NCBI GenBank assembly: GCA_951406725.2
Contig: OX597830.1
Span: 22,258,001 to 22,322,000, forward strand
Direction: 5' to 3'
DNA length: 64,000 bases
Source: Octopus vulgaris
Lineage: Eukaryota
Below the pieces are notes generated by a model. That model did not search any database, was not told the DNA's origin, and was given only the letters and a program-made list of their open reading frames with translations. Of this stretch, positions 6,001-12,000 are shown piece by piece; the stretch's first letter is position 1; every line of letters begins with the position of its first letter. Made by a program: the position numbers and the translations under genes.

Positions 6001-9000
6001 TTTTGGGTGGGGGCATGTGGTGATCCCAATATGAATAGTTGGTAGTTAATGTTGCACTACTTATATTAGTAAATATTCATCATATTTTACTTGGTTATTA
6101 TAAACTATAGTTCATGAAATAAAAAGAGGCCAGCAAATTGTTTGGGGCTTGGCTGTGTTATTACGCATGCTCAATGTTAGATGTGATTACCGAATTAGTG
6201 ACAGATTAACTACAAGAACAGATTAACCAATGTCAAGAACCAAAAATGTCTGTTTGGATGAAGATGACACCAAACACCTGAAGCAGAGGAGGTGGGGATC
6301 CTGAGTCCCCAAGAATATAGACATGACTCAGTGGATATTAGATAATTAATAATTTTTCTGACAAGATACAGATTGGAAGATGTTTGGAAAACCAGAAGAC
6401 TAAGTTAATTGTGTTCGTATTCCAGCCATGTTCCTGCTAAATTAGCAGTTACCATTTAGGGAATTCCACATTGCTTGCTGACCTCTTTTTAACTTCATGA
6501 AGACTATAGTTCCTGTATTTCTGTACATCTTTCGTCATAAGTGTTAGTCATACATTGCTGATGTGCAGTGACAGTTAGCTAGTTTAGGTAATCCATTTAT
6601 CGTCATAACCAATATCTTCATTTGAAATTAGTGTCTTTTGTATTCATTTATTCCTGAAAGGTGATAATAAATCACTTCTACATAAACACATCTTTACAAC
6701 AGGTAAGCTTCTTTCATCATCATATTTCCACTACATGCAATATTAATTTGATAGTATTGGTAAGAAACTTATGTTGTGGAGCATTCAGTATGCTTTGCTA
6801 ACTAGGAAGACGGCAACATCATTCTAATGTACTTAGATGCTGTCTTTTAACTAATAGATATGTAAATGCAGATAGGTTTTTGTGTCTGTAAGTATGTGTG
6901 TGTATATATATATATATCAGGCATGTGCCATCAGTAATTATTCAGGGTAGGCAGTTGGTGCCTTTATGTATTTAAACACATAAAAAAATAATGTGAAACA
7001 TAGGCATGCGACTGAGTTGTAGACAGATTTACTTCTACTTTTACAGCACGTAAAGAAAACATTGTTGTAGGAATGTACACAGCATGTGTACTACAGCAGT
7101 TCTATGCGTAGCTTTAATACTGAGATTGAAAGGCAGGGGCAAATTATGCCTACCTAATCTACAAAAAAATAAAATATTTTGTATTTTATGCATAGTAATC
7201 AGAGTAACCTTCATAATTTTATTGAATTAGTTGCATATTTTGCCGAAAAGGAAAATATTACTATCGATCTATTTTATTTAGGGTAGGTACTGCCTACCTT
7301 CCCTACTCGGGCAGTACGTCCCTGATATATACATATATATATATATGTCGGTGGCACGTAAAAAGCACCATTCGAATCGTGGCCAAAGCCAGTGCCGCCT
7401 CAGCTGGCTTCCGTGCCGGTGGCACATAAAATGCACCAATCTGACCGTGGCCGATGCCAGCCTCGCCTGGCACCAGTGCAGGTGGCATGTAAAAAGCACC
7501 CACTACACTCACGGAGTGGTTGGCATTAGGAAGGGCATCTAGCTGTAGAAACATTGCCAGATAAGACCGGAGCCTGGTACAGACTTCTGGCTTCCCAGAT
7601 CCCCAGTCGAACCGTCCAACCCATGCTAGCATGGAGAACGGACGTTAAACGATGATGATGATGATGATGATGCACTCACACAGATATACATTGTATTTAT
7701 TTAGATGAAGCACATTAATGTAAAGTTGTATGGTGTAGGTTTGCTAGTTTTTACTTGCATCAATGTTGAAATTATAATCCATTACAGTCCTTTAAAATTC
7801 TCTATTGATGATGATGATGCTATTTCTAAATAATTATTTTATTGTTACAGTTCTTTGGTTTCTAAGCCCAATGCTGCCAAAAAAGGTAATTTCTTTTTTT
7901 CTTTTGCATGTTTTCTCAGATTCTCTTTACTTACTTTCTAAGCTTGTTTCTTTTCTTTGAATTATTTGAAATTCTGACCTTACTGGGTTGCATTTCCTCA
8001 TCTTTTTGTATTTATTGATGCATTCCTATATCAATAGGCAATGACCAAATCAATCGGAATCTGTGGGTCTGTGGCTTTCCTGCAAATATCCCTGATAAAG
8101 TCCTCATCTCAATTTTTAGCAAGTATGGCAAGGTATGTTGAATGAAATCTGTTTTATGTCCTTCAATAAATGTTATTAATAATGATTGTCGTGATTTTCA
8201 GAATTGTTTTAACATCCACTTTTCCATGTTTTCATGGATTGAATAGAATTTATTGAAGATTTTCCACAGCCAGTTGCCTTTCCCGTCATCAACCCTTGTT
8301 TCCAAGCAAGGTAATATTTCCCTGACGGCCAGGCATGTTTTTGTATTCATTTACAACAATCATTCGATGTCAAGACAGAAACAATCACTCACACACACAC
8401 ATACACACACATAGAGGCTTCTTTCATTTTCGGTTTATCAAATTGTTGCACTATTCTCGTATGTGTCATGTCTTCCCACAATTAAGGAGTGACCATGTAA
8501 AGTGTTTGGCTTTTTCTTTCCATTCAATTGATACATCATACTGTACACTCCTAAAATCATTGATGCTTTCTATGGAGTTTGCTCTGTTGCAAGCACACCA
8601 TGATATATTGCATCCTTTGGAATTGTGCTACAATCACCAATAATTGTCGAACTATACTCACTTCTAACATTTCAGATGTGATGAAGAAAGTCCTAACATC
8701 TATTCTAGTCTATTGCTCTTTAATAACTACCAGTAAGGCTTTTGAATAGACATATTAACTGTAGACCTGTTCATATGTTTCTCACCAATGGAATTTTGCT
8801 TTTAATGAAAACATTTGGTGGAATCAACATTGTTATACTTTGACATCAATCAAGCCTTCAACTGTACTTGACTTGTAAGTCTCTCAACTATTCTATTCAT
8901 GTATGGGTTCATACATGTCACCATGTATATAGAGCTTACTCAGACTCACATTCTGTCAACATTGGTGTACCAAGGGTTTAGTTTTGTCTTTTTATACATC

Positions 9001-12000
9001 AGTGATTTACTTTCCATTATCTTCAACAGGTGTATGTATTATTGGATCCTATCTCACTGCTTGCCCCCAAGCATTGTCTGTATGATTGTGCAAAACTTGT
9101 ACTGACTTGAGCTGAGTCATTGAAAACATTCTTCAATAGGATTATATCAACCTTGACTCCTCCCCCTCCTCCTCCTCCTACAGTATAAAGACATAATCAC
9201 TGCACATACCAAGAAAACAAAATCACTTACATCCTCTAGGCATGAAGAGCTTACAGCTGAACTTCTAAAGTTTCTGCAAAAGCTTAGCTTCACCGTCAAG
9301 AAGGTTCTCTTCTTGTGAACACATAAATTCAGCATAGCAAGGCCTGCAATCACAGCGACAGAAACTAATCCAACTCCCAATAAACCTATCTATGTAGGTT
9401 GTCCCTCAGGATGCCCCAAGACTGTTTCCACACATTTTCCCCATTCATCTCGATCTTCCATAATGTTCCTCAACTCCTGTACCCCTTCCATACCAGTATC
9501 CTCCAGCAAGTTGTTGATATAGGTTGTCTTCTTTCTTCTTTCTGTTGGTTGCCAGAGCACTAGCTTGTTAGCAATTTCATCAGTATGTCTGATGCAGTGT
9601 CCAGCTAGCCTCATACTTCTATGCAGTATCTTCAGTGTTACTTTTGGTAGTCCCTGGTATAAGTCAGCGTTTGTTGTATGACTCTTCCAGGAGACATTGC
9701 CATTCTAAGCATCCTCGTATAACAACCAACCAACTGTTTCTTCAGTGCTTTAGTGAGCATCCATGTTTCAGTCCTGAATAAAAGAACAGACACCACCATT
9801 GCCAGAAACAACCTCACTTTCAATTTATTTGCTAACTTTGAACTCTATACCTTTCTCAATTTATGGCATGCACTCCATGCAAGAGCTTTCCTTGCTATGA
9901 TGTTTTTTCAGTACTTCATGTCCACACACCAAGGTATTTGAAATTTTCAACTACCTTGAGTGACTTACTGTCTCTCATTTTCACTGATACAGGCATTTTG
10001 TGATTGAATACTTGCAGCTCTGTTTTCTTTGTTACAGTACAGCCCTACCTTCCCCGATTCCTGCTCTAATCTGCAAGCATTCCCAATAAAATTGTCTGAT
10101 TCTGTTGACAATACTCTTCAGTCTTTAATCCAAAGATATGCTGACACTTTTCTCTGCTTTTGCAACAGTTAGTTACTTCAGCAAAACTTGTTCTTTGGTG
10201 CTGGCTTGTCTTGTATCACCTCCAATTGAACAGCCCTTACTGACTTGTATGTTCTTGTTTCTAAACCTAACCCCATACTACACACTAATCTCTATTCCGA
10301 GTCCTTTTATATTTCTCAGAATGTTGGCTTACTGCAGTTCTTTCCTTGCAGCTGTCAGTTGAAATTGTTCAGAAGAAATATTACTCCTGTAGATTTCATT
10401 TGTTTCAGAACCCGTGAAGGCCATGGGCACCGCCCTTTCCCCCAGACCAGATTACTAGACCAAAAATTACTGCATTTGATGGTATATGAAATGCATTTCA
10501 GAGAAATGTCTCAAATAGTCACCCCGAGTCCTATATACAATATTGGGCTTGTATTACTTCAATGCAATAAAAACTTTCTCTTGTGGGTATTACTGCTGAA
10601 ATTGAGGCACATCCAATATGTCCACGTGTCTTTTATGCATCTTTTATGCTATGAAATATGGTAATCTCCCTATTCCCTTACCTTGCTTCCTGAAGTGAGT
10701 TTTATTTAAATCTGCAGTGTCATTCTAATAATTTAGAATTGATATGTTGTTAGTGAGGATGATACTGCTGCTACTGACACTGGAGCTGAATACAGACTGA
10801 ATTTTTCATGTATGAAATTTTAATTCTTTATTTTTTATTAGGTTGAGGATTGCCAAAAGGTTACAAAGTTATACAAACGTAGCGGTCGATGTCATGCTTT
10901 TGTTACTATGTCTACTGAGGCTGAAGCTTTGCAATGTATAATGTGGTTGAATAAATCTCAAGTGAATGGTATGAGATTAACAGTTGAAAGGGTGAGACAT
11001 CCTGAATTCATTGTTTTGTTTATAAACCAAATGGTCAGCCATTGAATTAAGAATATGTGATCAGCTTTGTCAGTTCCTCTTCTCCTTTTAATAGATTCAG
11101 CTGTGGGCAGAGTGTTAGTAAATCAGTGTGTGTTAGTAAATCAGCTGTGGGCAGTGTGTGTTAGTAAACCAGCCATCTAGTTTGCCAGTCCTCAGTCAAA
11201 TCATTCAACCCATGCTAGCATGGAAAGCGGACGTTAAATGATGATGATGATGATACACACACACACACACACACACATAAACACACACACACACACACAC
11301 ACACACACACACACACACACACACACACACACACATGAACACACACACACACAAACACACATGCATTTGTTCTGTAGAATCGGTTCATTTTTTTTTGGGG
11401 GGGGCAGAGTTAAGCATTTTATATTGTTGTTTTATTCTTTGCTACTTGAAAATCATTCTCATTTTCTTTTCCCATTTTTGAAAATAAAAATAAAATTTCC
11501 ACCAAATTTGTTGAAGGAAAGAAGAATAGAGAATACACGTCGGAGAAAACCTGACCTTAAAGCACAGGAGAAAGGTCGGCCACAAAAACATCGGTTAGCT
11601 TTAAAGCTTCAGAAAAATGTGGGAAAAAAACAGAAGACGGAGGCCATAAGATTGGACATGGTGCGGAAGCAGTTAAGGTTATTTGAAATTCCACTAAAAT
11701 TGCAATTTTTAATGTTGGATTCCATCACTGTATGGTTAAATTTATTTAACAATAACATTGTTTCAGGTTCAATGTGCAGCACATCAGGCAAGTGTCTTGT
11801 ATCATAAGCTCAGGTTGACCAATGCTTTGTCAGTGAAATTTTTTTGTAGATAGAAACATTAAACCTTGTCTGAAAGACTATTCAAGTTTTTGTGACAGAA
11901 TACTTCTGTCACCTGGTTTAACTCCACATCTGGTTCTTGGAGGCCTTTAGCTGAGTACACACTCTTTCACACTTCCAAGATGGGTCTCTGATCTAAAGAC

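What the first reader, a model, noticed from the sequence alone, without database searches (positions are those of the whole stretch)
8038..10991. SAFB paralogue whose RRM evolved faster than its own introns: candidate adaptive change of RNA-binding specificity
Seen: the copy 1 and copy 2 RRMs match at only ~32/76 residues (42%). In the 150-nt exon, 30 of 50 codons change amino acid, while only 4 of the 20 conserved-residue codons carry a synonymous difference (~55/150 nt differ). The low-complexity 147-nt exon is ~71% identical in protein, the duplicated 126-nt exons are more similar still, and flanking introns align easily. Frame, exon lengths, splice sites and the hydrophobic core are kept. 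RNP2 changes LWVSGL to LWVCGF, RNP1 changes RCYGFVTM to RCHAFVTM (loss of a stacking aromatic), and the beta2-beta3 loop changes TNARSPGAR to TKLYKRSGR. Known: the RRM is normally the most conserved part of SAFB/SLTM, and SAFB proteins bind purine-rich retroelement RNA and suppress LINE activity and TE exonisation in human and fly. Inference: positive selection or neofunctionalisation after duplication, possibly a host-transposon arms race in a LINE/SINE-rich genome.
Basis: partly seen in the sequence, partly recalled or inferred. Interest (0 to 1): 0.85.

Follow-up and report, generated by a model that had tools for sequence, protein, structure and literature searches.

The report
Octopus SAFB cluster with rewired RRM
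An octopus genome carries eight neighbouring copies of the RNA-binding gene SAFB, and the copy flagged here is a spliced, intact-frame mosaic whose normally near-unchanging RNA-binding domain has replaced more than half its residues, likely under partly adaptive change that would alter which RNAs or partners it binds.

Summary
They are two of eight SAFB-like copies in one 345-kb cluster. The flagged copy (P7) is a mosaic: its RRM region comes from an older divergent paralogue lineage (P3), its 3' exons from the conserved copies (AU p 3e-4 and 7e-7). Pairwise, the RRM did not outrun its own flanking introns (dN 0.44, intron 0.65). All amino-acid change lies on one lineage, though, where dN is about 1.5-1.8 times the intron rate. 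Whole-domain omega is about 1 and standard branch-site tests are not significant. Site-mixture tests give omega 2-6 at roughly half the sites (simulated p about 0.04-0.05). The gene body has an open 742-codon frame and the RRM exons are spliced; its own SAP exon is dead. The new RNP1 (RCHAF) also occurs in an Argonauta paralogue, so the change is probably old and kept. Verdict: real neofunctionalised SAFB lineage, modest support for positive selection; the transposon arms race is untested.

The parts
1..31 (+). P7 exon c, 3' end (exon begins 211 nt before the window; likely start ATG lies in the exon before it)
1100..1133 (+). P7 exon d
   Evidence: matches P0001
3200..7900 (.). Tract 95-99% identical to paralogue P3 (likely recent gene conversion); ends just before the first RRM exon
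   Evidence: 400-nt windows
5053..5539 (+). P7 exon e (acidic low-complexity linker), 98% identical in protein to P3
7851..7885 (+). P7 exon f (35 nt; 41 nt in conserved copies)
   Evidence: covered by spliced contigs
8038..8132 (+). P7 RRM exon 1 (RNP2 LWVCGF, helix 1)
9200..10150 (-). Broken LINE-like fragment inside the intron between the RRM exons; absent from P3
   Evidence: three-frame translation, very high DNA-run depth, gap against P3; family name recalled
10842..10991 (+). P7 RRM exon 2 (beta2, beta2-beta3 loop, RNP1 RCHAFVTM, helix 2, beta4)
11517..11677 (+). P7 exon j: first ER-rich exon turned basic, 40% identical to P8; acceptor shifted by 3 nt after a 4-nt deletion; P3-lineage
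   Evidence: boundary agrees with O. sinensis model P0001
13447..13572 (+). P7 exon k1 (ER-rich, 126 nt); from about here on the gene resembles the conserved copies more than P3
15575..15700 (+). P7 exon k2 (duplicate 126-nt exon)
17763..17909 (+). P7 exon l (147 nt)
19626..19811 (+). P7 exon l2 (no counterpart found in P8)
20092..20225 (+). P7 exon m
20676..20971 (+). P7 last coding exon with stop codon
27060..27192 (+). P8 SAP-domain exon, broken (no start ATG, frameshift in an A run)
41824..41918 (+). P8 RRM exon 1 (canonical)
42792..42941 (+). P8 RRM exon 2 (canonical; identical in protein to P4 and P6)
44338..46017 (+). P8 exons g, h, i (88, 132, 191 nt), absent from P7, P3 and P2

Best explanation
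The flagged gene is a spliced, open-frame mosaic member of an eight-copy octopus SAFB cluster whose RRM belongs to an older fast-evolving paralogue lineage and likely acquired a different RNA or partner preference under a mix of kept core constraint and positive selection on its surface. Shown: eight copies, four with canonical and four with divergent RRMs; P7 groups with P3 from exon e to exon j and with the conserved copies in its last exons; 742 open codons; spliced RRM exons; own SAP exon dead. Inferred: an early duplicate was freed while P4, P5, P6 and P8 kept the ancestral RRM (their RRM exons are likely held alike by gene conversion); it fixed RNP1 RCHAF, lost three exons after the RRM and turned the next exon basic; later recombination joined this module to a conserved-type 3' end. 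Predicted: a SAP-less nuclear protein that still folds an RRM, binds RNA through W, R and F with changed preference, and would co-assemble with canonical SAFBs through its retained ER-rich exons, so modulating their splicing targets.
For: Cluster. Mosaic: trees 100/100 for each side, AU p 3.2e-4, 2.8e-4 and 7.3e-7, sliding windows. Function kept: no internal stop and canonical GT-AG at all 13 introns of the assembled frame; neutral decay would leave the 81-codon RRM open with probability 0.11 without indels and 0.0035 or 0.0005 with assumed indel rates; spliced contigs join the two RRM exons in run X4 (0 differences) and X14 (GT..AG, 22 differences in 240 nt); identical RRM in O. sinensis P0001; Pfam RRM_1 33.7 bits against cut-off 20.7; RRM fold predicted for the orthologue P0002; core omega 0.33-0.42. 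Old and kept: Argonauta P0139 has RCHAF and shares 8 non-P8 residues with both P3 and P7; RCHAF occurs in 8 of 286 fetched proteins, all of this lineage. Selection: omega on divergent branches 0.90-1.08 against 0.18-0.25; lineage dN 0.44 against flank-intron 0.24-0.29, bootstrap lower bounds 1.03-1.17, and against dS 0.22-0.23 on the P3 branch from 228 codons of 3' exons; site mixture omega 2.0-6.4 at 36-64% of sites, nominal p<0.05 in 11 of 12 fits; null simulations reached the observed statistic in 1 of 49 and 1 of 37 runs.
Against: Whole-domain omega is not above 1 (p 0.69-0.99; 0.38-0.91 under a clock). Standard branch-site model A is not significant (p 0.14 and 0.25). Fixed core/surface partition reached p<0.05 in 1 of 4 fits and 6 of 9, and I drew that partition after seeing the alignment. 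The mixture fit limited to P3+P7 in the worst case gave p 0.17 under one of two models; the simulated p pools P2 with P3/P7. All fits reuse the same 76 codons with home-made code, and conversion breaks the single-tree assumption. Intron flanks near splice sites may be constrained, which inflates the ratio. Change is not enriched on the RNA face. The Argonauta grouping is only 84/80 and joins long branches; one of the 8 shared residues (T22S) is common in other SAFBs. The start codon and 5' end of P7 are not shown, and no binding was measured.
Confidence: 0.6

Rival explanations
1. Relaxed constraint without adaptation: the duplicate still needs a folded RRM and its ER-rich region, but its surface drifts neutrally because redundant canonical copies do the RNA recognition; it acts at most as a dosage or dominant-negative modulator.
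For: Whole-domain omega 0.9-1.4 and indistinguishable from 1; branch-site tests not significant; helix surfaces changed more than the RNA face; exon j equally diverged; the P2 orthologue pair differs at 19.5% of residues along the whole protein, not only in the RRM.
Against: An average near 1 with a core near 0.4 implies a surface above 1; mixture tests and simulations favour that; RCHAF kept across P3, P7, P0002, P0144 and Argonauta P0139.
Confidence: 0.27
2. Host-transposon arms race: the divergent RRMs track changing LINE or SINE RNA, probably in the germline. This is a special case of the best explanation.
For: Human SAFB binds L1 RNA and suppresses TE exonisation, and is low in spermatids (PMC10901741, passages and section 11); continuing change between orthologues (13 of 76 for P7, 14 of 76 for P2, 0 of 76 for P8); LINE-like pieces lie in the gene.
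Against: No tissue, target or binding data; the same paper calls SAFB a non-adaptive, pattern-guided defence; changes are not focused on the RNA face; zero change between this genome and O. sinensis; fast evolution would fit germline splicing roles equally well.
Confidence: 0.15
3. P7 itself is a recently dying copy (transcribed pseudogene) of the functional paralogue P3, kept open by youth and conversion.
For: Its own first exon has lost the ATG and carries a TAG, and two small 5' exons were not found; a 4.7-kb tract was overwritten by P3-like sequence.
Against: 742 open codons; P3-P7 RRM dN 0.13 against dS 0.21; a spliced P7-type orthologue with 22 differences in 240 nt exists in another organism and P0002 is open; P8 and P2 also lack SAP yet have annotated orthologues.
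Confidence: 0.1

Closest known systems
Human SAFB1, SAFB2 and SLTM (SAP + RRM + ER-rich repeat; PMC10901741, passages read)
   Same: Exon-for-exon paralogue of copies whose RRM differs from vertebrate SAFBs at 10-12 of 76 residues; keeps RRM and ER-rich region.
   Different: RRM 42% identical to its own paralogue, RNP1 RCHAF, own SAP exon dead, three exons lost, basic exon after the RRM; eight copies in one cluster.
SAFB2 RRM mapped by NMR (PMC9958909, passages and section 2.4 read)
   Same: Canonical RRM fold with a flexible beta2-beta3 loop; RNA contacts at RNP1, RNP2 and the C-terminal residues.
   Different: P7 changes RNP1 positions 3-4, RNP2 positions 4 and 6, the loop and the residues that follow the domain.
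hnRNP G / hnRNP G-T / RBMY paralogues (PMC2762042, search listing and passages read)
   Same: Paralogues of a conserved splicing regulator whose RRMs bind different RNAs; a model for how P3/P7 could work.
   Different: Different family; germ-cell expression and changed binding are shown there and untested here. A resemblance, not membership.
Annotated Octopus and Argonauta proteins (XP_036366413.1, CAI9735049.1, XP_014784467.1, GAB1609389.1)
   Same: The divergent copies are already in public annotation under automatic SAFB names or as hypothetical.
   Different: No description of the cluster or of the divergent RRMs found in 9 paper searches; several models mix exons of different copies.

Membership tests
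SAFB/SLTM | Central RRM | tested here: met
   Pfam RRM_1 33.7 bits, cut-off 20.7, for P0001 whose RRM equals P7's; fold on orthologue P0002
SAFB/SLTM | N-terminal SAP domain | tested here: not met
   P7's own SAP exon lacks the ATG and has a TAG; the O. sinensis model P0001 takes it from the upstream copy P6. P3, with the same RRM type, has an intact SAP exon. So P7 is SAFB-derived, not a canonical SAFB.
SAFB/SLTM | ER-rich repeat region after the RRM | tested here: met
   Exons k1 and k2 88% and 83% identical to P8; exon j altered
SAFB/SLTM | Descent from SAFB (shared exon order and phases) | tested here: met
SAFB/SLTM | Binds purine-rich TE RNA and suppresses exonisation | not testable with these tools
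   needs CLIP or knock-down
Positively selected domain | Whole-domain omega above 1 on the divergent branch | tested here: not met
Positively selected domain | Site class with omega above 1 | tested here: inconclusive
   Branch-site A p 0.14, 0.25; mixture 11 of 12 fits nominally significant; simulations 1 of 49 and 1 of 37
Positively selected domain | dN above neutral intron divergence | tested here: inconclusive
   Pairwise no (0.44 against 0.65); per lineage yes (ratio 1.5-1.8), with possible bias
Pseudogene | Broken frame or lost splicing in the gene body | tested here: not met
   only the first (SAP) exon is broken
Host-TE arms-race gene | Germline expression and TE targets | not testable with these tools
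   run tissues were not given

The most novel reading that the evidence does not exclude
Octopods turned SAFB, a non-adaptive RNA-pattern guard against transposons, into a diversifying cluster: conserved copies held alike by conversion beside older copies whose RRM surfaces evolve adaptively to track transposon or germline RNAs, with domains reshuffled between copies and SAP-less bodies possibly spliced to a shared upstream SAP exon.
Probability: 0.15. Interest if true: 0.85.

Novelty: new variant of a known kind. Interest (0 to 1): 0.55.

Why it matters
The SAFB RRM differs at only 10-12 of 76 residues between octopus and vertebrates, and SAFB is described as a non-adaptive transposon guard. 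A natural series of expressed RRM variants (canonical, RCHAF type, and a P2 type that has lost the aromatic platform) lets one test directly which residues set SAFB's RNA preference and whether this defence can evolve adaptively. The cluster is also a clean case of exon-limited concerted evolution beside escape from it, and a warning that neighbouring copies and public gene models here are mosaics.

Tried and rejected
Treating the two window copies as a sister pair: rejected. Using easily aligned introns as the neutral yardstick: rejected, they are younger than the RRM split (intron after exon e about 0.23 apart, RRM flanks 0.65). Whole-domain branch tests and branch-site model A: not significant. 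The look-up of sequencing runs: no RNA holder listed on record; run kinds are guesses and tissues are not given, so no tissue pattern. Contig depth (P3-type 68-186 against P7-type 3.6-6.9 in two runs, 17.7 against 19.6 in a third) was not used to rank expression. Cross-species dN/dS from laid contigs: the difference table was cut (89 rows hidden), so only totals were usable. The join from RRM exon 2 to exon j and the 5' end of P7 lay outside the laid stretch and are not shown by reads. PDB sequence search gave only distant RRMs, no SAFB RRM. The structure job folded the orthologue P0002, not P7, with an alignment dominated by canonical SAFBs, so it is weak evidence. Nine paper searches (SAFB+Octopus; scaffold attachment factor+cephalopod; SAFB+RRM+LINE-1+testis; SAFB+paralog+positive selection+duplication; Octopus+gene conversion+tandem+RNA-binding+expansion; SAFB+RRM+RNP1+SLTM+evolution; Octopus+testis+SAFB1; Octopus vulgaris+genome+tandem duplication+RNA recognition motif; SAFB+mollusc+gene family) found no description of the cluster; subscription papers and supplements of cephalopod genome papers were not seen and may list it. 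Earlier-findings look-ups were empty.
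Full report
Observation. The window holds two SAFB-like genes on the + strand, about 33 kb apart. The flagged RRM exons are 8038-8132 and 10842-10991; the second copy's are 41824-41918 and 42792-42941. The contrast is real: the second copy's RRM differs from a caecilian SAFB2 at 10 of 76 positions, and of 53 positions at least 90% conserved in the 78 fetched homologues that cover the domain, the flagged copy keeps 26.

The cluster. A genome search with RRM exon 2 gave 8 matches from 14 candidates, all within 345 kb of contig C17; searches with two divergent exons added none. I fetched 398 kb around the window and named the copies P1-P8 by position; the finding is P7, the second window copy P8. 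P4, P5, P6 and P8 have canonical RRMs; P1, P2, P3 and P7 share 42, 30, 34 and 32 of 76 residues with P8. Matching proteins are annotated in Octopus vulgaris, O. sinensis and O. bimaculoides.

P7 is a mosaic. It groups with P3 at 100/98 or 100/100 for exon e, the next intron, the RRM and exon j, but with P4, P6 and P8 at 100/100 for its last exons; AU tests reject the alternatives at p 3.2e-4, 2.8e-4 and 7.3e-7. Identity to P3 is 95-99% from about 3200 to 7900, 83-89% over the RRM exons and their intron, and falls below that to the conserved copies after about 12000. P2, P3 and P7 also lack three exons (411 nt) after the RRM, and exon j is as diverged as the RRM (40%, dN 0.43).

Against introns. 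Flanks taken by position beside both RRM exons differ between P7 and P8 at 41.8% of 354 columns, corrected 0.65 +- 0.07, more than RRM dN 0.44 or dS 0.51. The title fails pairwise. But the protein change sits on one lineage: three-point estimates give dN 0.44 against intron 0.24-0.29 for P7 (ratio 1.51-1.84, bootstrap lower bounds 1.03-1.17), 1.48-1.77 for P3 (lower bounds 0.93-1.18) and 1.26-1.38 for P2 (intervals include 1). Synonymous length of the P3 branch from 228 codons of 3' exons is 0.22-0.23, in line with the introns. Constraint near splice sites and optimised alignment would inflate these ratios.

Codon models (own code, 76 codons). Omega is 0.90-1.08 on divergent branches against 0.18-0.25 on conserved ones, and not above 1. 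Branch-site model A: p 0.14 for the P3+P7 stem, 0.25 for all divergent branches. With 26 core and 50 surface positions, chosen from recalled RRM anatomy after seeing the alignment, core omega is 0.33-0.42 and surface 1.31-1.68, p<0.05 in 1 of 4 fits; under a clock or fixed length, 6 of 9. A two-class random-site mixture gave omega 2.6-6.4 in 6 of 6 clock fits (p 0.0003-0.02) and 2.0-4.2 in 6 free fits, 5 with p<0.05. Simulations under the null reached the observed statistic in 1 of 49 runs, and 1 of 37 with 3% doublet mutations. These fits are not independent. I read them as modest support, about 55-60%, for positive selection on part of the surface. P7 keeps 18 of 26 core, 9 of 23 sheet-and-loop and 5 of 27 other surface residues, so the change is not aimed at the RNA face alone.

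Is it a gene? From an ATG just before the window, 14 exons give 742 codons without a stop, with GT-AG at all 13 introns, matching O. sinensis XP_036366413.1 closely and with an identical RRM. Of four runs laid on 7690-11160, a contig of X4 joins the two RRM exons with no difference from P7, a contig of X14 joins them at GT..AG with 22 differences in 240 nt beside a separate P3-type contig, X3 has a P7-identical piece of exon 2, and X17 covers the introns as DNA would; that the first three are RNA is the tool's guess, supported by the joins. P7's own SAP exon, 12.5 kb upstream, has lost its ATG and carries a TAG; P8's has a frameshift; P3-P6 are intact. The O. sinensis model borrows P6's first exons, which is unresolved.

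Age. A search of 50%-identity representatives found Argonauta hians GAB1609389.1, a second SAFB on the same-length contig as the canonical one. It has RNP1 RCHAF and shares 8 non-P8 residues with both P3 and P7; the RRM tree joins them at 84/80, with long branches. RCHAF occurs in 8 of 286 fetched proteins, all in this lineage, against 196 with the canonical motif. The lineage therefore probably predates the Argonauta-Octopus split, and the new RNP1 has been kept while the rest keeps changing (13 of 76 between P7 and the unnamed orthologue P0002; 0 of 76 between P8 and O. bimaculoides P0013).

Mechanism. The domain still scores as RRM_1 and the orthologue folds as an RRM. Human SAFB2 contacts RNA through RNP1, RNP2 and the C-terminal residues (PMC9958909, section 2.4) and dimerises through a coiled coil (passage). 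P7 keeps W, R and F of the platform (roles recalled) and changes RNP1 positions 3-4, the loop and the tail, while keeping ER-rich exons. The likeliest reading is a SAP-less SAFB variant with shifted RNA or partner preference that co-assembles with canonical SAFBs; this step is inferred. Human SAFB suppresses L1 and TE exonisation and is called non-adaptive (PMC10901741, passages and section 11); nothing here links P7 to transposons. The nearest working analogy is hnRNP G, G-T and RBMY (PMC2762042, passages).

Verdict. Observation numerically right, framing partly wrong. What is there is an undescribed (9 searches) eight-copy SAFB cluster with an old, expressed, fast-evolving RRM lineage: a new variant of a known family. 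Interest 0.55; 0.85 if adaptive tracking of transposon RNA were shown (probability about 0.15).

Noticed in passing
G000:C17 copies P4, P5, P6, P8 (window 41824-42941 for P8): RRM exons of the conserved copies are nearly identical even at silent sites (dS 0.06-0.12) while P5-P8 flanking introns are 0.60 apart: likely exon-limited gene conversion.
   Followed up: partly
window 3200-7900: A P3-P7 conversion tract of 95-99% identity stops just before the first RRM exon, where identity drops to 83-89%; chance or selection against homogenising the RRM.
   Followed up: partly
window 27060-27192 and G000:C17:22245435-22245545: SAP exons of P8 and P7 are both broken and share the lost start; no SAP exon was found for P1 or P2, so 4 of 8 copies look SAP-less.
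   Followed up: partly
G000:C17:22210455-22311738: Public models P0001, P0015 and P0016 join exons of P6 with P7 or P8: annotation error from multi-mapping, or real long-range splicing from a shared SAP exon.
   Followed up: partly
G000:C17:22063912-22066369 (L021): Copy P2 has lost the RNP2 Trp and RNP1 Arg, Tyr and Phe; the O. bimaculoides orthologue P0130 keeps the loss, so it may be a protein-binding pseudo-RRM.
   Followed up: partly
G000:C17:21952610-21982822: Copy P1 is a much older paralogue (dS above 1.2 to all others) under purifying selection, with two exon-e-like pieces.
   Followed up: partly
G000:C17:22251905 onward (+), P7 first intron: A 1004-residue open frame that looks like a LINE endonuclease-RT protein lies in sense in P7's first intron; a similar 1057-residue frame lies at 22352844 (-) (family recalled, not scanned).
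   Followed up: no
P0009 (CAE1316081.1): A 1073-residue SAFB from another source carries two RRMs, one drifting (58 of 76 to P8): possible independent duplication.
   Followed up: no
window 10757-11160, run X17 record 14: A DNA contig with 38 differences in 404 nt carries one P3-type and otherwise P7-type letters among the rows shown: possibly another recombinant copy in that organism.
   Followed up: no
window 13447-15700 and 48878-50572: The 126-nt ER exon is duplicated with its intron in P4, P7 and P8 but single in P3, P5 and P6.
   Followed up: no
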